Of a stretch of 64,000 bases of DNA, positions 3,926 through 43,578 are shown piece by piece. A program made the position numbers and the translations under genes. This DNA comes from Octopus sinensis (taxonomy: Eukaryota): the NCBI RefSeq assembly GCF_006345805.1, contig NC_043026.1:4340001-4404000 (forward strand). Direction: 5' to 3'. Each line of letters starts with the position of its first letter. Position 1 is the stretch's first letter. Below the pieces are notes generated by a model. That model saw nothing but the letters and a program-made list of their open reading frames with translations, did no database searches and was not told where the DNA came from.

Positions 3926-4074
3926 ATGTATTTATTATGGTAGTTTGACTTTAATAATCCCTCGTAGTGTGAAGCATTTATGTATGGTAATGCCCTGATA
4001 TATAAACATATATATGTGTAAATGTTTGTTGTATAGCTAGAATGATGGATGTATATATATATATATATATATCC

Positions 4075-4908
4075 ATTCATATGCTCCCAGTCATCTTCCC
4101 AAATACATTCGTAAACTATGACAAGATATACTCTGACATGCGGGTTCCATTCCTTCTCTGCCGATTATATTCGTAGTCTCGTTATGTTGATTTGGGGGCA
4201 TCAGTCTCACAGATTTTATTTTAGAAATCCACCCCATACGTATTCAGTTAGTCTCTTGTACTGAAGCACAAACCAAATCTAGACATATATTTTGGGAAGG
4301 GACCCTTTGTGAGAAAATATGCAATGCATTCATATAACTGTTGTTTCTAGCAAACTTTGTATTTAAGTTTGTGTCTGTAACTAGTTTTTTGTTGTTGTAT
4401 TAATTTCATTTTAATAATTAAATGCAATTAATGCCTAATTAAAAAATATAATTAAAAGCATGACTATAAAATGCAACTGAATGCAAGAGCTGCTAGTAAT
4501 AGCAGCCAAATTTACAGAGAAAACAGCCCCATATTGTCTCACGTAACTCCATACATATTTTATATAGCTAGAGTTGCTTGAAATAGCAGCCAAATGCCCC
4601 TCCAATCCACTGTACTTCTGAAATTAGCTACAGTTTAAAATTTAAATTCACGCCTGTTGTCATGCAAAAAACAAATCCATACAACAGGTCCATTAAACTG
4701 TGTCATTTCATATGCTAGAAACAACAGCAAGTGTTTAGCAAAAATATATACAAAGACGGACAGAGAAAAAACTGGGAGGAAAGCAAAAACCAAAAAAGAT
4801 CGAAATATATAATGTATCAATGTTAAATGTACTTGCTAGAAATAGCAGCCAAAACTCACTGAATCACAGCTGTCTGTCTATCTATTTGTCTGTCTGTCTG
4901 TTTGTCTC

Positions 4909-4947
<39 letters not shown>

Positions 4948-7900
4948 TCTTTTATTCTTGTACATTTATTTATTCTTTTATTTGTTTCAGTTATTTCACT
5001 GTGGCCCTGCTGGAGCACCACCTTCCTGGGTTTCTGTCAAACAAATCTTTGTAAGTTTAGTACTTATTCTATCAGTCTCTTTTGTCAAATCAAAGTCACA
5101 GGGACATAAACAGACCAACATCGGTTGTCATACGATGGGGATGTGTGGTGTAGGGTAGACACATACAAATGAATATGTTATATATATATATATATACACT
5201 CATATAGATATACACACATACATATATGATGGGCTTCTTTCAGTTTCCATCTAGCAGATCCACTCACAAGGCTTTGGTTGGCTTAAGGGTCATTTAAAAG
5301 ACACTTGCCTAAGGTGCCACACAGTAGGATTGAACCTGGAAACATGTGGTTGGGAAGCAAACTTCTTATGACAGAGCCTGGCCGATGCCAGTTTGCATTA
5401 CTGGTACCTGTGTCGACTCGTTTCTTTCGTCCTTCTCTTCCCATTGTCTTCCCACACACATTCTAAACGACACCAAGGTATACTCACAACATGTTGGTTC
5501 CATTCCTTCCTCTGCCGATTTTACTCGTTGTCTTGTTGTTTCTGTCAATTCTGGGGCACCAGTCTCAAGGATTTTATTTCAGAAAATCGACCCCAAACAT
5601 ATTCCCTCCGTCCCTTCTACTCAAACAACAAACTAAACCTAGGCACAAGCTTTGGAAAGGAGACTTTATAAAAAAATATGTGATACATCCTTTAACTGTT
5701 GTTTCTAGCTTCAACTTGTATTTAATTGTGCATTTGTAACTATTTTATAGACTTGCTGCTAGAAATAGCAGTCAAAACTCACTGAATCACAGCTGTCTAT
5801 CTATCTATTTGTCTTATATGGTTTCCAGTTTTGTATAATTTATTTGGAATAATTAAATGGAAAATGAAGTCTAATTTAGAAAAAGAAAACGAAAATTCTT
5901 GATGTATAAGAATAAATGAAAGCAAGGTCTGCTAGAAATAGCAGCCAAATCTACGTCGAAACAGCATCATACTGCCGCCTCACGTAACTCCATCCATATT
6001 TATATATGAGCCGATAAAAATTGAAGCCAATGAAAATGATAGCTAGATTTGTTTGAAATAGCAGCCAATGTCCCTCCAATCTGCTGTAGTTCTGAAATTA
6101 ACTCAGTCTATAAATTCTACACCTATTTGTCACGCAAAACAAGACAAATACAAAGGGTCCATTAAACTGAGACGTTTCCTATGCTAGAAACAACAGCAAA
6201 CTCGAGCAAAATATATGCGAAGAAGGAAACAGAAAATCTGAGAGGGAGGCAGAAAGAAAGACATTAAAATATAGAATGTTTCAATGCTTAATGGATGCGA
6301 GTTACTGCTAGAAATAGCAGCCAAATCTCACATCTGTCTGTTTATCTATCGAAGGGGTTCCCACCTTTTTTATTGCCCTGCACCCTTAAAACCTTTAATA
6401 TGTTCTCACACCCCTTAAGTAATAGTTTATATAAGAATAAAGGTGCCCGGAGCAATTACCGACTTGAACCCATATAAATCCCGCCCTGCTCGCACCCCCA
6501 AGCGGTGTGTGCACCCCTGGGTGGACACCCTGCATCTAAATATATTACATTCTTTGTTTCTTTACTTGTTTCAGTTATTTGACTGCGGCCATGCTGGAGC
6601 ACTGCCTTAAAGGGTTTTAGTCAACAAAATCGACCCCCCCAGGATTTATTCTTCGTAAGCCTAGGACTTATTCTATCGTCTCTTTTGCCAAACTAACTTA
6701 AAGGGTTGTAAACAGACCAACATAGGTTGTCAAGTGATGGTTATGTGGGGTGGGGTTCAATATACACACATGAAATATATATTTATATAATACACACAGA
6801 TATATACACTCACACATATATATATAGGGGCAATGGCTGTGTGGTTAGGGAGCTTGCTTCCTAGCTACATGGTTCGGGTTCAGTCCCACTGCGTGGCACA
6901 TTGGGTAGGTGTCTTTCACTATAGCCCCGAGGCCGACCGGAGCTTTGGATTGAATTCGGTAGGTGGAAGTTACTACTACTGCCGTGTGTGTATGTGTGCG
7001 TGTAGCTGCTCAGTGCCTCTCCCAAAGAGAGAGAGGGGATATCTGTTGTACTATAGGCACGAGGCCTGAAAGTTTGGCGGGTGGGGGGGGGGAGTTGATA
7101 ACAACATCGAATCCAACGTTTCACTGTACTGTCATTTATTGACCCTGAAAGGTTGAAAGGCAAAGTTAACCCTGACGAAATTTGAACTCAAAATATAGTG
7201 ACAGGTGAACCAACCGCTACGTACTATTTTGTCCGGTGCACTAACAATTCTGCCAGCTCACCTCTGTGTGTGTGTGTGTGTGGTGTGTGTGTAATTATAT
7301 ATATATATATAATATTTATACATATACATATACATATACATATACAAATTTATAAACTGCAATTAATTTCAGAAGAACAGTAGATTGGAGGGGCATTTAG
7401 CTGCTATTGTCAAACAACTCTAGCTATCATGTACACTTCATCTTTCATCATTCATATAATATATAAATATGTATGGAGTTAGAAGAGATGGTATGATGTT
7501 GTTTCCAACGTAGTTTGGCTGCTACATCTAGCAGCTCTGGCATTCGTTTGATTTTACACACGATTAATACATATACTATATATATATATTACATACATAT
7601 ATATATATATACATATATATATATTATATAATATATATATATAGTGAAGGACGTGGCTCAGTGGTTAGAGCATCGAGCTTACGATCGTGAGGTTGTGAGC
7701 TCGAATCCCGGACCGGGCGGGTGTGTTGTGTTCTTGAGCAAGGCACTTTATTCCACGTTGCTCCAGTTCACTCAGCTGTAGAAATGAGTTGCGACGTCAC
7801 AGGTGCCAAGCTGTATCAGCCCTTGCCTTTCCCTTGGATAACATCGGTGATGTGGAGAGGGGAGGCCGGTATGCATGGGCGACTGCTGGTCTTCCATAAA

Positions 7901-16349: not shown

Positions 16350-17921
<1,572 letters not shown>

Positions 17922-27266: not shown

Positions 27267-28386
27267 ATGGAAAAGAGTGAGAAAAAAAAAGAAACTGATT
27301 TTTCCAGAAAATAGAGGAAAAGGGAGACAAAAATTGTCACATGAGTGTGATGTCTTTAAAAAGTCTTTCTCTCAAAAGAGCAGCTTGAATACGCACAAAC
27401 ATATTCATAGAGGAGAGAAGCCCTATCACTGTGACATTTGTGATAAATCATTCTCTCAGAGTTGTAACTTGACTAGACACAAACGTATTCATACAGAAGA
27501 GAAACCATTTCACTGTAATGTCTGTAGTAGGTCATTCTCTGACCACAATGCTTTAAATTCTCATATACGTGTTCATACAGGGGAGAAGCCATTTCACTGT
27601 GACACTTGTGGTAAATCATTCTCTATAAATGTCTCACTGACTCAACACAAACGTATTCATACTGGAGAGAAGCCATATCACTGTGACATCTGTTCTAAAT
27701 CATTCTCTCAAAATGGTAGTTTATCTATACACAAGCATATTCATACAGGAGAGAAGCCATTTGACTGTGATGTCTGTGGTACATCATTCTCTCAGCGGAG
27801 TTCTTTAGATTCTCACAAGCATATTCATACAGGAGAGAAGCCATTTCACTGTGATGTCTGTGGTACATCATTCTCTCAGTGGAGTTCTTTAGATTCTCAC
27901 AAGCGTTTTCATACAGGAGAGAAGCCATTTCACTGTGACATCTGTGATAAATCATTCCGGGGAAAAGACAGCTTGACCAAACACCAACGTATTCATATAG
28001 GAGAAAGCCATTGACTGTACATTTGTGGTATATCATTCCCTCAGAAAGGTAGCTTTGACTTCACACAAACGTGTTCATACTGGAGAAAAGTGGTTTCACT
28101 GTAATGTCTGCAGTACATCATTCTCTCAGCAAAATGCCTTGGAGTCTCACATACGTGTTCATACAGGAGAGAAGCCATTTCACTGTGACATCTGTGGTAA
28201 ATATTTCTCTCAAAGTAATAACTTGACTATACACCAACGTGTTCACACAGGAGAGAAGCCATTTCACTGTGATATCTGTGGTACATCATTCTCAGACCAA
28301 AGTGTTTTAAAATGTCACAAACGTATTCATGCCGGCGAGAGGCCTTATCACTGTGGTGTACTCGTATACATGTTCATATAGGATAG
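27267..28386 (+). CDS. C2H2 zinc-finger protein B, ~12 fingers, frameshifted; possible pseudogene
   Basis: ATG at 27,267 paralogous to gene A; +1 A in a homopolymer; ORFs 27,277-28,014 and 28,025-28,381 with HTGEKP linkers; GGA TAG at 28,381-28,386. Confidence 0.8.
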
Positions 28387-29614: not shown

Positions 29615-30420
29615 AGTAACTTGATTACACACAAACGTATTCATACTAGAGAGAAGTCTTACCACTGTGATGTCTGCAGCACATCATTCTCTGACCAAAG
29701 TGCCTTAAAGTCTTATATACAAAGTGTTCATACAGGGGAGAAGCCATTTCACTGTAACGGTGATAATGATGATGATTTGTGAGAAATCTTTCTCTAAAAA
29801 CATTAGCTTGACTACACACAAACATTCATACAGGAGAGAAACCTTATCATTGTGATGTCTGTTTTATGTCATTCTCTCATCAAAGTGCTTTTAATTCACA
29901 CATGCGTTTCCATACGGGGAAGAAGCCATTTCACTGTGACATCTGTAGTAAATCATTCTTTCAAAAATGTGACTTGCATAGACACAAACGTCTTCATACA
30001 GGAGAGAAGCCTTATCACTGTGATGTCTGTGGTACATCATTCTCTGACCGAAGCGCTTTAAATTCTCACATACGTGTTTATACAGGGGAAAAGCCGTTTC
30101 ACTGTGAATTCTGTGGCAAGTCATTCTCCGAAAGTGCTACATTGACTAGACATACACGTATTCATACAGGAGAGAAGCCATATCATTGTGATATCTGTGG
30201 TACATCATTCTCTCAGCAAAGTGCCTTAAATTGTCACATTTGTGGTAAATCATTCTCTCGAAGTAATATCTTGACTACACACAAACATGTCCATACAGGA
30301 TAGAAGCCATATCACTGTAATATCTGTGGTAAATCATTCTATCACAGTAGTACTTAAACTTCTCACAAACATGTTCATTCAAGAGAGACATATTCCTGTA
30401 ATATCTGTGGTAAATCATTA
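29615..30420 (+). pseudogene. C2H2 zinc-finger array C (degenerate or partial duplicate)
   Basis: ORF 29,866-30,303 with ~5 fingers plus broken fingers on both sides; no own start or leader seen. Confidence 0.7.
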
Positions 30421-34850: not shown

Positions 34851-35984
34851 ACTGGGAAGCTTAATGTTACCCTAAGGAACTTAATTCTGACGTTAGTTTT
34901 TCATGCAATACCTTACCATCAGAAGAAAATCGATAAAATCATGCCATTTTGGGAAATCGCGTTCAAATTCAAGATGACATATTTTTGACAATATCTTTAA
35001 CAAATTGGCAGGAATTTTTTTTAAAATTCACAGCAAGCATCATGTCTGCTCCAAGGAGCTATATGGCCATTTTGATTCCAATAGGATACGTTATTACTGG
35101 AAAAAATCGGTTAATTACATCATATGTGGCACGCATAGCAAACCGATTTTTCTGCGATATTTTTTGAAAGTTCACGTAGATTTTCCCTACACCGATGTTG
35201 GACATCAAGTTTGCATTGAATGTCAAACTAACGACCTTTTGTCAATGCAGTTAACAAGTATTGGGAGAAATCGACAAAACCGTATCACTTTGAGACCGAC
35301 CATGCAAACCCTACAAAACTGACTTTTGTTAAATAGTTGGCGGATTTCAGGCGATTTAGTCGATTTTTGGCGCTTATATCATAAAGGTTACTAGAAATGG
35401 CATATGTTTTCCTTTTGCTTCAAATCCGAGCAATGTTGGGCTGTAGATGAGTTTGCGGTTGTGTGAGCACGTGCGCGTGTGTCCTTGACACGATGATTGC
35501 AGCTCTTCCCATTGGCTCCCCAAACGGTGAACAATGCTCTCAATTAAACACCCTTTGGCCAATCACATGCACTGACACACTCAGTTGTGCGCGTATAGTT
35601 TCTGACTCCCACTTCTTCTCTCGGTTCACACCCGCTCGCTTCACACGTTGGCCTACTTCTGCTAATCGCTGCTGCAGCCGCAAGTTATTCGAATACTTTT
35701 TTGTTTAAACTTTCTTTATAACTACCACCCCAAACGTTTTACCTGAAATTTTTGACGTACCCTAAGGGTCCTCGGGCGCTACTTGCAAACTCTAAGCCGC
35801 TTTTGTCGTGTGCACCAAAAAGCCATTTCCATTTGTTGGTTCAGTTTGGTCACTTTTTCGTTGTTGTCCCTCACCTTGCTGCCCGCTTTTTTTCCGTTTT
35901 TGTACATTTTCATACATTTTGGGATACTTACCCCATATGTTCCTTTTTATTACACCTTTGCCAAACACATTGCTATCCACCAAA

Positions 35985-38900
35985 ATGCCACCCAAGAAGA
36001 GAAGGAACCTCCTCAGCCCTCGGACGGCCAAGGCATCGGCTGCTAGGGCTAGAAGGGCACGCGAGACCCACGAGGAAACCGCCTTGCGCCTCTCGCAAAA
36101 AGCTTCCCATTCTGCCGCTGCTGAGGCATCTGAAACTACTAGCGACTGTTCTACCCGACTTGCAAGGGCCACAGCGTACAGATCTTCCCTCCGCTCGAGG
36201 TTGACGAAAGAGCAACAGTCCAGCCAAAACATGCAGGCTTCTTCCTGTGCTTCCATCCGCAGAGCTCGTGAGAACCCCGAACAAAGGGCCATTCGGAATG
36301 CGGCTAACGCCGCTAGCACCGCCTGGACACGATCTGTCGAAACACCTCAACAGAGGAGAACTCGCCAAGCTGCTGACGCCGCAAACACAGCCATGGCCCG
36401 ATCTGCCGAAACACCTCAACAGAAGAGAGCTCGCCAAGATGCTGACACCGCAAACACAGCCATGGCCCGATCTGCTGAAACACCTCAACAGAGGAGAACT
36501 CGCCAAGCTGCTGACGCCGCAAACACAGCCATGGCCCGATCTGCCGAAACACCTCAACAGAGGAGAGCTCGCCAAGCTGCTGACGCCGCAAACACAGCCA
36601 TGGCCCGATCTGCCGAAACATCTCAACAGAAGAGAGCTCGCCAAGCTGCTGACACCGCAAACACAGCCATGGCCCGATCTGCCGAAACACCTCAACAGAA
36701 GAGAGCTCGCCAAGCTGCTGACGCCGCAAACACAGCCATGGCCCGATCTGCCGAAACACCTCAACAGAAGAGAGCTCGCCAAGATGCTGACACCGCAAAC
36801 ACAGCCATGGCCCGATCTGCTGAAACACCTCAACAGAGGAGAACTCGCCAAGCTGCTGACGCCGCAAACACAGCCATGGCCCGATCTGCCGAAACACCTC
36901 AACAGAGGAGAGCTCGCCAAGCTGCTGACGCCGCAAACACAGCCATGGCCCGATCTGCCGAAACATCTCAACAGAAGAGAGCTCGCCAAGCTGCTGACAC
37001 CGCAAACACAGCCATGGCCCGATCTGCCGAAACACCTCAACAGAAGAGAGCTCGCCAAGATGCTGACACCGCAAACACAGCCATGGCCCGATCTGCTGAA
37101 ACACCTCAACAGAAGAGAGCTCGCCAAGCTGCTGACACCGCAAACACAGCCATGGCCCGATCTGCCGAAACACCTCAACAGAGGAGAACTCGCCAAGCTG
37201 CTGACACCGCAAACACAGCCATGGCCCGATCTGCCGAAACACCTCAACAGAAGAGAGCTCGCCAAGATGCTGACACCGCAAACACAGCCATGGCCCGATC
37301 TGCTGAAACACCTCAACAGAGGAGAACTCGCCAAGCTGCTGACACCGCAAACACAGCCATGGCCCGATCTGCCGAAACACCTCAACAGAGGAGAACTCGC
37401 CAAGCTGCTGACACCGCAAACACAGCCATGGCCCGATCTGCCGAAACACCTCAACAGAAGAGAGCTCGCCAAGATGCTGACACCGCAAACACAGCCATGG
37501 CCCGATCTGCCGAAACACCTCAACAGAGGAGAACTCACCAAGCTGCTGACACCGCAAACACAGCCATGGCCCGATCTGCCGAAACACCTCAACAGAGGAG
37601 AACTCGCCAAGCTGCTGACACCGCAAACACAGCCATGGCCCGATCTGCCGAAACACCTCAACAGAAGAGAGCTCGCCAAGATGCTGACACCGCAAACACA
37701 GCCATGGCCCGATCTGCTGAAACACCTCAACAGAAGAGCTCGCCAAGCTGCTGACACCGCAAACACAGCCATGGCCCGATCTGCCGAAACATCTCAACAG
37801 AAGAGAGCTCGCCAAGCTGCTGACACCGCAAACACAGCCATGGCCCGATCTGCCGAAACACCTCAACAGAAGAGAGCTCGCCAAGCTGCTGACACCGCAA
37901 ACACAGCCATGGCCCAATCTGCCGAAACACCTCAACAGAAGAGAGCTCGCCAAGCTGCTGACGCCGCAAACACAGCCATGGCCCGATCTGCCGAAACATC
38001 TCAACAGAAGAGAGCTCGCCAAGCTGCTGACACCGCAAACACAGCCATGGCCCGATCTGCCGAAACACCTCAACAGAAGAGAGCTCGCCAAGATGCTGAC
38101 ACCGCAAACACAGCCATGGCCCGATCTGCCGAAACATCTCAACAGAAGAGAGCTCGCCAAGCTGCTGACACCGCAAACACAGCCATGGCCCGATCTGCCG
38201 AAACTCCAGACCAACGAACTATTCGGACATCCAGAGATGCCATTAACACTGCTTCTGGTAGGGTTTCAGAGGGTGCGGAGGCGAGAGCTGAAAGGCTTTC
38301 AAGGGATGCCACTGCTACCGCTGTCGCACGTGCATCTCAAACTGCTGAGGCACGGCGCACTCGACTTGAGAGTATCAACCAACGTTGGGATATCATTTGT
38401 GGTGTACGTACCCCTGCCCCCGCTTTCTGGTCGTCACTAGCATTCAACTACGACGCCACAATTAACTTCTCCTTGCGTGACGACATCAAGATAGGGTCAA
38501 TGACAATTGTATGCCAGTTTTGCAAAGCCAAGAAATGGCCCGGAGAGCCACCTGAACCACTGAAAGATCTTGCGGCGGATTTAACCCCCGAATCGTCACA
38601 ATTCCTTGAAATCATTCGAAAGTACAACTGCTCATTCCAAATGACCTCTTTCGGGGCCAAAATTCCTCCTAGAGAAGGCTGGATGCCTACATTCAAAGTG
38701 CAGGGACAGGTCTACCATCTTATTGGGTCACTTCTGCCAGACGAGATTCAGCAGTCTTCTTTCCTCCAAATCTACTTCATTGCCGACTACAACCAGCAGG
38801 TTGATGCACGCCTTGGAATAATACCGGGTACATGCTATGTTCCCCGCAAAGACATTCTTCTCCGTCTCCAAACCATGCTTCATGATATCAACAGCTACGT

Positions 38901-40987
38901 CTGCAGCTTCAGGTATGCCTTGGACAGTGCTCCGTCTCCAAACTTCACCATTGTCATTGATGCTGATAAACGACCCCACGAGGAGCACGAACGCCGTTTC
39001 AACGCACCTGCGTGCAACGAAATTGCCGCAGTCATACACGGAGAGCAACACAACAGCCGTGACATAATCATCTCCTCCCGTGGTAACAGCCTACGCAGGA
39101 TCAGCGAGACTCACAGATCTTATGACGCGTTTCAGTATCCATTGCTTTTCCCTTATGGGGAAGACAGCTACCAATTCGGAATTCCTTTACGGCAGCCCTC
39201 CAATCAAAATACTGCGGCATCAAAGACGGTTTCCTGCAGGGCGTTCTACTCATACCGGTTCATGGTCAGGGAGGGTGAGTTCAACTTATTGCCCCGTTGT
39301 CGTCAGCTATTCAACCAGTTCACCGTCGACATGGCCGCAAAAATGGAATCGGAAAGGCTGCTATACATTAAACTTAATCAGACCAAACTTCGCTCCGACT
39401 CCTACGTTCATCTCCGTGACGGCTTGCAACAAGAAAATGACTCTCGCAACATCGGCAAGCCATGCATTCTACCCTCACGGGAGGACCGCAATATATGTGT
39501 GAAAGGTCCCAAGACGCCTTGACCTACGTGCGCATTTACGGCCGGCCGGACCTCTTTATCACCTAACGTGCAATCCCAACTGCGACGAAATCACTCGCGA
39601 ACTCCTCCCGGGTCAGTCTCACACCCATCGACACGAGATCATTGGTAGGGTTTTCCATTTGAATTTGGGCAAAATGATGGATTTGATAGTTAAGGGTCAG
39701 ATTTTCGGGCATGTCAGGTGCCACATGCTTTCGGTCGAGTGGCAAAAGAGGGGCTTGCCACATGCTCACATCTTAATTTGGCTAACTAATAAAATCGAGA
39801 CTAATGACATTGACAAATTCATTTCCGCCGAGATTCCTGACCCCGATGAGGACACCGAACTGTACGAAATTGTCCGCACTACCATGGTACACGGGCCCTG
39901 TAGACCAAATTACGCCAACACACCATGCTGCAAAAATGGATTAGCCTGCTCAAAGGGATTCCCTAAACGGTTCACTTTGGAGACTCAAACAGGCGGTGAT
40001 GGGTATCCGCTGTACAAACGAAGGAGTCCAGCCAATGGAGGCCGCACGATTACGGTTGGGCGACATCAAGTGGACAACAGCTACATTGTCCCCTACTGTC
40101 CTCTCATGTCGAAGATATTCAAAGCTCACGTCAACGTTGAGTTCTGCAGCTCCATCAGGTCAATACAATATGTCTGCAAGTATATCAACAAGGGTAGCGA
40201 TGCTGCCATGTTCAGCATCCAGAGGACCACCAGTCGCGACGAAGTGTCCAACTACTTGGCAGGCCGGTACCTCAGCAGCAACAAAGCGTTTTGGTGCATT
40301 TACGACTTCCCGCTCCATCAGAGACACCCGGCTGTGGTGCAGCTTGCTGTACACATGGAAAATGGACAGCGAATTTACTTCACAGAGCAAAGTGCGGCGC
40401 AGGTAGCCACCAACCCTAAAGACACAACGTTGACCGGTTTCTTCAAATTATGCCAACGTGATGACTTCGCTCGAACGCTTTTGTACCCCCAGGTCCCGTC
40501 GTACTTCGTGTGGTCCAACAACACCTGGGTTCGACGGAAATCCGGCAAAAACGTCGAAGGCTTCCCAGGCGTCAAGTTTGACTCTTGCTTGGGTCGAGTT
40601 TACAACATCCCGCCAAACCAGCAAGAATGCTTCTACCTCCGTCTCCTTCTACATGAGGTCACTGGTCCAACAGGTTTCGGCAATATATGTACTGTCAATG
40701 GGGTTCTGTGCGACACCTTCAGGGAAGCATGTATGAGACTTGGCCTTCTAGAGGATGACTCCCAGTGGGACGCCACTAGTGCAGAGGGCGCTTTACTGCA
40801 AACGCCTTCGGCTCTACATCTTTTTACAATCCTTCTTCAAAAATGTCAGTTTAGTGACCCACTAAGTCTCTAGATGAAATACAGGGATGACATGTCGCAG
40901 GACTTCTTACGTACGGCTCAGCAACACTGCCCTTCCGCCGAGATCACGTTCACCAACTTCATTTACAATTTTGCGCTTATTCAACTC
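35985..40987 (+). mobile_element. Helitron Rep(-Hel) transposase coding region, frameshifted, truncated by the assembly gap
   Basis: MPPKKRR start; CQFC..KWPGE; YN.SFQMTSFG; FKVQGQVYH; RRFNAP; SYDAFQYPLLF; YGRPDLFIT; VEWQKRGLPHAHIL (HUH); YVCKYINKG; GRVY...FYLRLLL...TFREAC..LGLLEDD. Confidence 0.95.
36333..38193 (+). repeat. Coding minisatellite: 27 x 69 bp (23-aa STPR-like unit SAETPQQKRARQAADTANTAMAR)
   Basis: 1861 bp = 27x69 minus a 2-bp deletion at ~37,735; units counted from the translation. Confidence 0.95.
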
Positions 40988-41087
40988 NNNNNNNNNNNNN
41001 NNNNNNNNNNNNNNNNNNNNNNNNNNNNNNNNNNNNNNNNNNNNNNNNNNNNNNNNNNNNNNNNNNNNNNNNNNNNNNNNNNNNNNN
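40988..41087. other. Assembly gap (100 N)
   Basis: Run of N; fixed-size scaffolding gap. Confidence 1.
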
Positions 41088-43578
41088 CACTTTTCGACTT
41101 TACGAATGAGTTTTTCTTGTCCCCAACTGTCCTTGCACCAACAAGACATCAGAACATTTTGGACCTAGTGTTTAGTAACCACACTAACACTATACATAAA
41201 CGTTACAGTGGAAAAACCCTTCTTTCAGACCATGACATGGTTCTCTGTAACATGAAATTCTACCAGCCGAAAGCTAATCCTAGTGACCTTCCTCCAGCCA
41301 CCCCATTTGACAACATGGATCTCCATAATGCCAACTGGGATGCAATCAGGAACGAGCTATCACATGTTGACTGGTCCTTTACACATACACACATCTCCAC
41401 CAACCATAAAACACTTGGCAGATCTTTGTAGACACCGTCACAGACATATGTGCAAAACACTCCCCACCAAGACCTGTGAAAAAAGTGCAGAATCCCCCAA
41501 AACAGAAAACCATTATCAGAAAAATAAAAGAACAAACAAAAAAATTAACAAACTAAAGTACTGCCAACAGCAACACACACATTCGAGACGGCTATCGCAC
41601 TGCTTGAATCCAAAAAATATAACCTCCAACAATGCATGAAGAACCCACCCTCATCAATAACCCAAGATCAGCTGAGGAGAAGTGGGCCATTGAAAAAATC
41701 AAACTCAACCCCCAAGTGTTTCTTTTCATTTGCGAGGAAACGCAGGGTCACTGTCTCCACTGTTGGCCCTCTAATTGACGAAACTGGCACTCTCCAAGAT
41801 AATGCCAAATCCATGGCCGAGATACTGCAAAACAATACTGCTCTGTTTTCAGCAATCCTGATATGGCCGATCTGGCTGTATCAGTGATCAACCCCCAACA
41901 CACATATCGGACATAAGTTTAGTGCCCCTGATGTCTTAGCGGCGATAAACGAAATAAAACACAATTCAGCATAGGCCCCGATAGGTTCCCTGCTTGTGTC
42001 CTGAAGGTATGTCGACACCAACTTGCATCTCCCCTGCTAATCTGTGGAGAAACTCACTGGATGCTGGCTATATTCCAAAAAACCTTCTGTCCCAGTCTGT
42101 TGTCCCAGTTTTCAAAAGGGAAACAAGTCCCTTGCAGTGAACTACCGTCCGATCTCACTCACCTCTCATATCATCAAGGTATTTGAGAGGGTGGTGAGAT
42201 CTCGAATACCCCATTTCTGGAAAGCAACAGATGGCTGATCTCCAACCAACATGGGTTCCGTAATGGAAGGGACTGCCTAACGCAGCTCCTGCATCCTTTG
42301 ATGACATTTTGAGAGCTTTGGGAGAGGGCTCCAACACCGATGTCATCTACCTTGATTTCAGTAAGGCCTTCGACAGGGTCGATCACAAGATCCTATTGAA
42401 AAACTATCCAACATTGGTGTCTCTGAAAAGTTACTGAAATGGATCAAGTGTTTCCTGACAGACAGATCTCAACATGTTGTAGTTGAAGGGGTAAAATCAA
42501 GCCCAGCCAAAGTCAGGTAGTGGCGTTCCGCAAGGCACTGTGCTGGGCCCACTTCTTTTCATATTTACATTAATGACTTAATGACATCATCAGCACAGCA
42601 ACCAAAATTTTTGCAGATGATTCCAAGCTACAGAAGGTCATAAATGAGTGCGAGTGACCGGACATGCCTTCAGTCAGATCTACTGGATGTTATCCAATGG
42701 GCAGAAAAAACAATATGCTGCGAACGAGGATAAATTTGAGTAATCCACTTTGGAAATGAGGATGCCCTGAACTCCCATACTCCCTTCCTTCAGTGAAACT
42801 CTCGGTGGCGTCCAACAACACAGAGACTTGGGAGTAATTGTGGACAACAACATAAGCTGGGCCACTCTATAAACACCAAAGTTGACATGGCCCTCATAAT
42901 GTGTTCCTGGATTCTCAAACTTTCCAGTCGAGAGATATCCACACCATTATCCTTCTCGTCTCCACTTTTGCCCGACCCACCTTGAATACTGTTGTCCACT
43001 GTGGTCTTCCCCACACAATACAGGTATCATAAAATTGAGCACCTCAAAGGCAATCACAAAAAAGATAGATGGCATGACAGGCCTCGACTATTGGGGTCGA
43101 CTAGAAAAGCTAAAACTTTATTCTCTCCAACTCCAACGTCGTCGTGAGCGCTACAATCATCATCTGCATGATGTGGAAAATATTCCATCAGCATTGCCCA
43201 AATGATGTTGGCATCACCTTTAAGGTACATCCAAGGCTTGGGCCCCTGCCATCCGCCCAAACAAAATCGCACTCTCATCTCATAACAACAATACGGCACA
43301 ATTATTTCACCTCAATTGGCCCCGCTCTCTTTAACATTACACAAAACACATTAAAACGAAACTGACCCTATAGGGTCAAGAAGTCTTTGGACAGATTCCT
43401 TCAGAAATCCCGATAAACCCCCTACACCCGATATGCTCTGTAAACATAACTCTCTACTTGAGTGGGCCATAGTGCCCAATTCTGACTTGAAAGACTTCAC
43501 CAGGTGGTGCTATTAAGTTGGACATGGCCTGGGCCAATAATGGCCGAAACCTATCAAAGTATCAAAGTCAAAAGTATA
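41088..43578 (+). mobile_element. CR1-clade LINE ORF2 (end of APE domain + RT) and 3' end, many indels
   Basis: TRHQNILDLVFSN, LSDHDMV, NYRPISLTSHIIKVFE, QHGFR, DVIYLDFSKAFDRVDH, SGVPQGTVLGPLLF, FADDSK; tail (tatcaaag)n. Confidence 0.9.

What the first reader, a model, noticed from the sequence alone, without database searches (positions are those of the whole stretch)
35985..38380. Helitron transposase with a massively expanded 23-aa STPR-like DNA-binding array
Seen: 27 near-identical 69-bp units sit in exact 23-aa register with diverged units on both sides (upstream ETHEE, ETTSD, LTKEQ, ENPEQ; downstream ETPDQ, EGAEA, QTAEA), between an MPPKKRR NLS-like start and the Rep domain. Known: STPR repeats are 23-aa E-T-x-E-Q-R units that form a DNA-binding domain of about four copies in Bombyx FMBP-1 and occur in some Helitron proteins. 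Inference: one unit of an ancestral ~8-unit array expanded recently to ~34 units in total, giving a TALE-like modular nucleic-acid-binding arm on a rolling-circle transposase.
Basis: partly seen in the sequence, partly recalled or inferred. Interest (0 to 1): 0.75.

Follow-up and report, generated by a model that had tools for sequence, protein, structure and literature searches.

The report
Ballooned repeat in a dead Helitron
A broken rolling-circle transposon carries 27 near-identical 69-base copies of a DNA-binding-type repeat where intact members of its family carry two, and the extra copies likely multiplied in place after the element died, an early step towards satellite DNA rather than a working giant DNA-reading arm.

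Summary
The array is real in the assembly: 27 units of 69 bp (36339-38199) plus 7 diverged units, matching Pfam STPRs (E 8.5e-18), at the front of a Helitron transposase gene. It is not in exact register: unit 21 lacks 2 bp, so the ATG frame stops after 589 aa and never reaches Rep. The copy is also broken by a 54-bp zinc-finger deletion, two more frameshifts, a stop and a missing 5' end. Of 59 other copies fetched, the only 2 with whole ORFs carry 2 core units (9 in all); the longest other core is 9, in a Rep-less derivative. The array holds 2 private substitutions in 1,861 bp against 1.6-2.6% in its flanks, so it grew or was homogenised after insertion. Dead copies of another Helitron family in this genome carry about 185 and 317 such units. 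Best reading: minisatellite-type ballooning of a coding repeat in a dead transposon. STPR on Helitrons is published (HELIANO). This scan noted the same ballooning before on other DNA (unchecked notes). Array length could not be confirmed with long reads.

The parts
34856..35984 (+). 5' non-coding remnant of the Helitron; the family's 5' terminus (TC..., about 300 bp further up in intact copies) is absent
   Evidence: Similarity to family copies starts abruptly at 34856; the family 5'-end motif has no match in the window
35985..37754 (+). ATG reading frame, 589 aa: MPPKKRR (NLS-like, inferred), 4 diverged + 20 core STPR units, ended by the frameshift in unit 21
   Evidence: PF21107 E 8.5e-18
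36063..36338 (+). Four diverged upstream STPR units (ETHEE, ETTSD, LTKEQ, ENPEQ), shared with family copies
36339..38199 (+). Expanded core: 27 units of 69 bp, 11 unit types in the order ABACDEBACDBFGBGGHIGBJDKEDHD, mean pairwise difference 3.6%, one 354-bp exact internal repeat at 345-bp spacing
37719..37785 (+). Unit 21, 67 bp (2 bp short in an AG run): frameshift between the arm and Rep; real mutation or assembly error not resolved
   Evidence: Logan contigs do not bridge it
38200..38406 (+). Three diverged downstream STPR units (ETPDQ, EGAEA, QTAEA)
38537..38566 (+). Junction of a 54-bp in-frame deletion that removes the second cysteine pair of the zinc-finger-like motif; private to this copy
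   Evidence: (1 exact match in the genome)
38407..40987 (+). Broken Helitron Rep region: 7-bp deletion near 39474, 1-bp deletion near 39565, TAG at 40871; HUH motif (39761-39769) and YxxKY (40169-40183) readable
   Evidence: (PF14214 E 8.2e-9 and 3.1e-20)
40988..41087 (.). Assembly gap (100 N); helicase and 3' end of the element are not seen beyond it in the window

Best explanation
This is a broken, older copy of a multi-copy canonical Helitron whose STPR-coding 69-bp core units likely multiplied in place from 2-3 to 27 by slippage or unequal exchange after the copy had inserted and begun to decay, an early stage of satellite formation. Shown: the lesions, the family norm of 9 units, the near absence of private changes in the array, and far longer arrays in other dead Helitrons of this genome. 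Inferred: the order of events and the mechanism (shared variants shuffled among units and a 5-unit higher-order duplication point to unequal exchange). In the living family the 9-unit arm is predicted to be a chain of short helices that grips AT-rich DNA as Bombyx FMBP-1 does; that is untested.
For: Of 39 copies picked by Rep similarity, 34 have about two core units (121-141 bp), 3 have one, 2 are unmeasurable, none has more. Of 20 loci picked for multi-unit matches, 4 have 2, 12 have 3, 3 have 4, 1 has 9; the 9-unit copy L070 lacks Rep. Only 2 of 59 copies have an open frame of 1,500 aa or more (L035, L044), both with 2 core units. The window copy sits with older copies, end branch 0.026, and has 45 private substitutions in 2,788 Rep sites, but the array has only 2 single-unit substitutions and 1 deletion in 1,861 bp against 48 expected at 0.026. 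Its 54-bp deletion junction is unique in the genome, so no daughter copy is seen. 7 of 8 variable sites change the amino acid, against 75% expected at random. On contig C29, a different Helitron family's unit forms arrays of about 185 units (MPSKKR start, array, helicase tail, no Rep match) and about 317 units, split by stops and frameshifts. Helitron internal arrays growing into satellites are reviewed in PMC12628747 (passages read).
Against: Array length and the 2-bp deletion rest on one assembly; only short-read contigs were available and none bridges the array. Only 40 of 235 and 40 of 165 candidates were scored, so close sister copies with long arrays may be missed, which would shorten the end branch and weaken the timing argument. 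Private Rep changes are 15 synonymous and 30 non-synonymous (pN/pS 0.59), lower than pure neutrality. 26 of 27 units keep the frame and none has a stop. Eight variable sites are too few to test selection. Low private divergence could also come from ongoing gene conversion in an older array. An unchecked note (e1-10334253) reports a young Helitron in this genome with 22 units.
Confidence: 0.76

Rival explanations
1. The assembly inflated a shorter array, or the length is real but the 2-bp deletion is a polishing error.
For: No long reads could be laid; contigs match the array only in pieces of 31-68 bases among the rows listed; an assembly gap lies 2.8 kb downstream; the deletion sits in an AG run; 57 of 59 copies have broken frames, some perhaps through sequencing error.
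Against: 11 distinct unit types in non-periodic order and a longest exact repeat of 354 bp are not what a simple duplication gives; other copies show 3, 4 and 9 units and C29 shows hundreds. Even if the 2-bp deletion is an error, the 54-bp, 7-bp and 1-bp deletions, the TAG and the missing 5' end remain.
Confidence: 0.1
2. The array expanded in an active element and made a working long-armed transposase, which later died.
For: Arms of 7-11 units sit in single frames with Rep in other animals' Helitron proteins (P0001 11, P0103 9, P0111 9, P0003 8), so arm length is tolerated; units keep frame; unchecked note e1-10334253 reports 22 units on a young element in this genome.
Against: No other copy of this family with a long arm and Rep among 59; array much more uniform than its decayed flanks; maximum 11 units among 139 relatives with a detectable zinc-finger motif, of 157 fetched (many are fragments).
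Confidence: 0.07
3. The 589-aa frame (NLS-like start plus 24 STPR units) is expressed as a free poly-STPR protein, co-opted by the host or acting against active Helitrons.
For: The frame is open from the ATG through 24 units; L070 has a similar open 497-aa Rep-less frame; host STPR proteins (FMBP-1, ZNF821) exist (PMC4856987); predicted helix-linker chain matches 5d23.
Against: No sign of purifying selection in the array (7 of 8 sites non-synonymous); 5' end of the element is lost; key BmSTPR contact residues absent from core units.
Confidence: 0.07

Closest known systems
Canonical Helitrons (HLE1) with an STPR domain, HELIANO survey (PMC11417382; passages read)
   Same: STPRs (PF21107) ahead of Helitron_like_N and PIF1; TC/CTAG ends with 3' hairpin in the family. 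The paper lists STPRs among domains almost exclusive to HLE1.
   Different: The passages read give no unit counts and place STPRs among domains in separate ORFs; here intact copies have STPR and RepHel in one frame. This copy is broken and has 34 units instead of 9. Supplementary Table S11 was not read and may hold counts.
Helraiser transposase (PDB 7lcc; PMC4778049, passages read)
   Same: Intact family protein L044 matches over residues 213-1600, E 8e-257; NLS, zinc-finger-like motif, HUH Rep, SF1 helicase; A|T target and AT-rich 3' flank.
   Different: Helraiser's match starts at its residue 75 against residue 213 here, so its N-terminal arm is shorter; the window copy is not functional as assembled.
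Bombyx FMBP-1 STPR domain (PDB 5d23; PMC4856987, parts 1-4 of 5 of the text read)
   Same: 23-aa units with Glu1, Thr/Ser2, Arg9 (31 of 33 whole units each); predicted 20-residue helices with 3-residue linkers; 5d23 is the top structural match, Z 5.7, rmsd 2.1 over 64 residues and the only sequence match, E 0.087.
   Different: FMBP-1 has 4 units (3-7 in its homologues); Leu10, Tyr16 and Arg20 are found in only 4, 1 and 1 of 33 units here; it is a host transcription factor.
Satellite DNA from Helitron/Helentron internal arrays (review PMC12628747, passages read)
   Same: Tandem array inside a Helitron, variable in length between copies, ballooning in dead copies.
   Different: The monomer here is a protein-coding DNA-binding repeat of the transposase, not a non-coding central repeat; at 27 units it is minisatellite-sized.

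Membership tests
Canonical Helitron (HLE1) family | Rep domain with HUH and two-tyrosine motifs | tested here: met
   PF14214 above cut-off in two frames; PHAHIL and YVCKY readable
Canonical Helitron (HLE1) family | PIF1 helicase downstream of Rep | tested here: inconclusive
   Present in family copies L035, L044 (PF05970 E about 1e-62); the window copy ends at an N gap before it
Canonical Helitron (HLE1) family | 3' hairpin plus CTAG end, insertion between A and T | tested here: met
   Seen in family copies: 50 of 51 ends followed by T; the window copy's own 3' end is not in the window
Canonical Helitron (HLE1) family | 5' TC terminus on this copy | tested here: not met
   Present in family copies, absent from the window copy, which starts matching at 34856
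Autonomous (working) Helitron | One open frame from the N-terminal arm through Rep and helicase | tested here: not met
   2-bp, 7-bp, 1-bp frameshifts, TAG, 54-bp deletion
STPR domain (PF21107) | Profile match above the curated cut-off | tested here: met
   65 bits against 27, E 8.5e-18
STPR domain (PF21107) | 23-aa units with Glu1, Thr/Ser2, Arg9 | tested here: met
   31 of 33 whole units at each position (unit 21 left out)
STPR domain (PF21107) | Tandem helices with short linkers | tested here: met
   Single-sequence model of 7 units, mean pLDDT 88, pTM 0.37, seven 20-residue helices; 5d23 ranks first, Z 5.7, a modest score
STPR domain (PF21107) | BmSTPR DNA-contact residues Leu10, Tyr16, Arg20 | tested here: not met
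   4, 1 and 1 of 33 units; Arg/Lys6 and Arg9 are kept and an Arg sits at 21
STPR domain (PF21107) | Binds AT-rich DNA in the major groove | not testable with these tools
   Needs EMSA, ITC or SELEX
TALE-type programmable repeats | 33-35-aa repeats, each reading one base through a variable residue pair (recalled, from no call) | tested here: not met
   Units are 23 aa; the family's solved member reads mainly shape, 4 bp per unit (PMC4856987)
Helitron-derived tandem repeat / satellite | Homogenised tandem array with shared variants inside a Helitron, length varying between copies | tested here: met
   6 of 8 variable sites shared among units, 5-unit duplication; 1-9 core units in other copies
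Helitron-derived tandem repeat / satellite | No coding constraint on the monomer | tested here: inconclusive
   7 of 8 variable sites non-synonymous against 75% expected; too few sites
Helitron-derived tandem repeat / satellite | Array length confirmed independently of the assembly | not testable with these tools
   Only short-read contigs were served

The most novel reading that the evidence does not exclude
The STPR arm is a length-variable grip that steers these Helitrons to (TA)n tracts, and this copy's open 589-aa frame (NLS plus 24 units) is made as a free poly-STPR protein able to coat about 100 bp of AT microsatellite, a new DNA-binding protein born by repeat ballooning in a dead transposon.
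Probability: 0.07. Interest if true: 0.7.

Novelty: new variant of a known kind. Interest (0 to 1): 0.3.

Why it matters
As read here it is a small, datable example of a protein-coding transposase repeat turning into tandem DNA: one genome shows 2, 3, 4, 9, 27, about 185 and about 317 units in Helitron copies, which makes the path from coding repeat to satellite testable. It also warns that long in-frame STPR arrays in genome scans need not be proteins. It is not evidence for a TALE-like programmable arm. If the poly-STPR frame were expressed, it would show how host STPR transcription factors can arise from Helitrons.

Tried and rejected
Reads: no RNA holder listed; all runs were short-read contigs, none bridged the array or the 2-bp deletion, so length and expression are open. 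RNA-guessed run X17 covered the start and Rep parts at mostly 95-99% with family-type letters, so it does not identify this locus. Foldseek against PDB gave no match. A search of longer proteins with the window's own array found 1 hit, a 7-unit Helitron protein; long proteins can crowd out relatives, so this is weak. BLAST flagged L056 and L059 as sharing the 54-bp deletion; alignment showed both have the sequence. The unit-counting profile was seeded with L044 and five of the proteins counted, so their counts are partly circular; P0001 does not match PF21107 at E 0.01. In one search the zero counts are scan artefacts for at least L050, so one search is used for those 39 copies. An exhaustive count of family copies with three or more units was not obtained. 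Papers: 'STPR'+'Helitron' gave 2 papers, both HELIANO; 'octopus'+'Helitron'+'satellite' gave 7, listings only, none on this by title; one search gave no STPR paper among 15 listed of 1,657; PMC11417379 has no mention of STPR or Helitron in its main text. I found no paper on STPR units ballooning into satellites in these searches of an open-access library; no supplements were read. The host is probably an octopus (2.72-Gb genome, C2H2 clusters, unchecked scan notes; recalled, not established).

Full report
Observation. The window holds a 69-bp tandem array at 36330-38204 (27.2 copies, 95% matches). Anchoring on the unit start gives 27 units from 36339 to 38199; 26 are 69 bp and unit 21 (37719-37785) is 67 bp. 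The frame from the ATG at 35985 reads MPPKKRR, four diverged units and twenty core units, and stops at 37752-37754 (589 aa); units 22-27, three diverged units and the start of Rep are in another frame. The N-terminal frame matches Pfam STPRs (PF21107, E 8.5e-18, 65 bits, cut-off 27) and the downstream frames match Helitron_like_N (E 8.2e-9 and 3.1e-20). So the array, the 34-unit total and the STPR/Helitron identity are confirmed, and the 'exact register' is not.

The copy is broken. Against intact copy L044 the window has a 54-bp deletion after 38554 that removes half of the zinc-finger-like motif, a 7-bp deletion near 39474, a 1-bp deletion near 39565, a 3-bp deletion and a TAG at 40871, and 4.0% substitutions, while L044 and L035 differ by 0.9%. 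The 7-bp and 1-bp deletions are in 0 of 43 alignments that cover them, and the codon at 40871 is a stop in 0 of 43 copies. The 54-bp junction occurs once in the genome; two apparent sharers were alignment artefacts. Similarity to the family starts abruptly at 34856 and the family's 5' end is missing. The element runs into a 100-N gap at 40988; no helicase or 3' end follows in the window.

The family. A genome search with the Rep flank gave 235 candidates, 40 scored, 39 other than the window at 91-93%. All 39 were fetched: 34 have about two core units, 3 have one, 2 cannot be measured, none has more. A search with eight array units (165 candidates, 40 scored) was followed for its 20 best non-self loci: 4 have 2 units, 12 have 3, 3 have 4, 1 has 9. 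The 9-unit copy, L070, is a short derivative without Rep. Only 2 of 59 copies keep a frame of 1,500 aa or more: L035 (1,645 aa) and L044 (1,618 aa), with STPRs, Rep and PIF1 in one frame and 9 units in all. L044 matches Helraiser (7lcc) at E 8e-257. Family ends are canonical: 3' hairpin and CTAG, followed by T in 50 of 51 sites. In a tree of 43 rows with both flanks (16 of 59 loci lacked one and were left out), the window groups with older, star-like copies (end branch 0.026; bootstrap not fully settled), apart from the young 2-unit burst.

How the array grew. The 27 units have 8 variable sites, 6 shared among several units, giving 11 types in the order ABACDEBACDBFGBGGHIGBJDKEDHD, with one 354-bp exact repeat at five-unit spacing. 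Several shared variants already distinguish the family's core units, so the array is a mosaic of them. Only 2 substitutions and the 2-bp deletion are private to one unit in 1,861 bp. At the copy's end-branch length 48 substitutions would be expected; at the 45 private changes in 2,788 Rep sites about 30. The array therefore grew, or was homogenised, long after the copy began to diverge (inference; unsampled sister copies would weaken it). Seven of 8 variable sites are non-synonymous against 75% at random: no sign of protein constraint, on few sites. Against a purely neutral history, private Rep changes give pN/pS 0.59 (15 synonymous, 30 non-synonymous), which may include changes from before insertion.

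The same process elsewhere in this genome. A PF21107 search (1,463 candidates, 150 scored, 63 matches) led to 11 fetched regions. Six are copies of another Helitron with Rep matches and at most 4 units counted, one showed neither Rep nor units, and three lie in 69-bp arrays on C29; one further region (L114) showed Rep only and is among the six. One C29 element reads MPSKKR start, about 185 units (129.4 + 55.7), then a helicase tail with no Rep match; another has about 317 units (140.6 + 144.4 + 32.5) from an assembly gap to a helicase tail; both are split by stops and frameshifts, and the monomer of the longer array differs from the window's at 33 of 69 bases or more. Earlier scan notes describe such satellites in other genomes (unchecked), and gave me the lead to look. 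Helitron internal arrays growing into satellites are reviewed in PMC12628747 (passages).

What the arm would do. A single-sequence model of seven units gives seven 20-residue helices with 3-residue linkers (pLDDT 88, pTM 0.37); 5d23, the BmSTPR-DNA complex, ranks first among 48,161 chains (Z 5.7, rmsd 2.1, 64 residues; modest) and is the only PDB sequence match (E 0.087); Foldseek found nothing. Glu1, Thr/Ser2 and Arg9 are kept in 31 of 33 whole units, but Leu10, Tyr16 and Arg20 in 4, 1 and 1. BmSTPR covers 4 bp per unit, prefers AT-rich repeats such as (atac)n and (atat)n and reads mainly shape (PMC4856987), which is not a TALE-type code (TALE features recalled). Among 157 related proteins, 139 had a detectable zinc-finger motif and carried 0-11 units ahead of it (many are fragments), so short variable arms are common on Helitron transposases. 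HELIANO lists STPRs as an HLE1 domain (PMC11417382). The family's 3' flanks start with (TA)5 in 23 of 51 sites against 7.1% of 65,886 background AT sites (tandem insertions, non-CTAG ends, another family's ends and one duplicate were dropped). This fits an AT-gripping arm, but Helraiser also prefers AT-rich 3' flanks (PMC4778049), so the arm's role is not shown.

What could not be shown. Only short-read contigs were served; none bridges the array or the 2-bp deletion, and no RNA holder was listed. An unchecked note reports a young 22-unit Helitron in this genome (e1-10334253), which I did not test and which would show that long arms can be carried by live elements.

Verdict. A real STPR array in a dead Helitron copy, likely ballooned in place (0.76); assembly inflation 0.10; once-working long-armed transposase 0.07; expressed free poly-STPR protein 0.07. 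New variant of a known kind; interest 0.3.

Noticed in passing
L021-L089, 3' flanks of family copies: Insertions favour TA microsatellites: 23 of 51 3' flanks begin with (TA)5 against 7.1% of background AT sites; many 5' flanks are TA runs too. BmSTPR prefers such repeats, but Helraiser shows an AT-rich 3' preference as well.
   Followed up: partly
L116, L117, L123 (G000:C29 about 2,625,300-2,647,500) and L118, L125 (C29 about 3,036,100-3,048,800): 69-bp satellites of about 317 and 185 STPR-like units of another Helitron family, each ending in a helicase tail, split by stops and frameshifts.
   Followed up: partly
L070 (G000:C9523), oriented 4017-5507: Rep-less Helitron derivative with an open 497-aa frame: NLS-like start and 9 core STPR units with their flanking units.
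   Followed up: no
L028 and L033 (G000:C3 about 34.86 Mb): Head-to-tail tandem of two full-length family copies; the 3' CTAG of one is followed directly by the 5' end of the next. Many of the young copies lie on C3.
   Followed up: no
L022, L024, L025, L028, L029, L031, L043, L051, L052 and others, oriented about 6140-6153: Many young copies have their frame broken at the same place in Rep, which suggests a defective master copy spread in trans.
   Followed up: no
window 16477-17865, 27367-28359, 29808-30419: 84-bp C2H2 zinc-finger arrays (zf-H2C2_2 E 7e-62 for 27268-28011); the Helitron lies in a zinc-finger gene cluster.
   Followed up: no
window 41088-43500: Decayed LINE-like sequence after the gap; weak endonuclease match (PF14529 E 0.0037, below cut-off).
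   Followed up: no
P0001, P0007: A butterfly Helitron protein has 11 units with a three-unit higher-order pattern; a lancelet HLE2-type protein (DUF6570, endonuclease) has 7 near-identical STPR units, although HELIANO finds STPRs almost only in HLE1.
   Followed up: no
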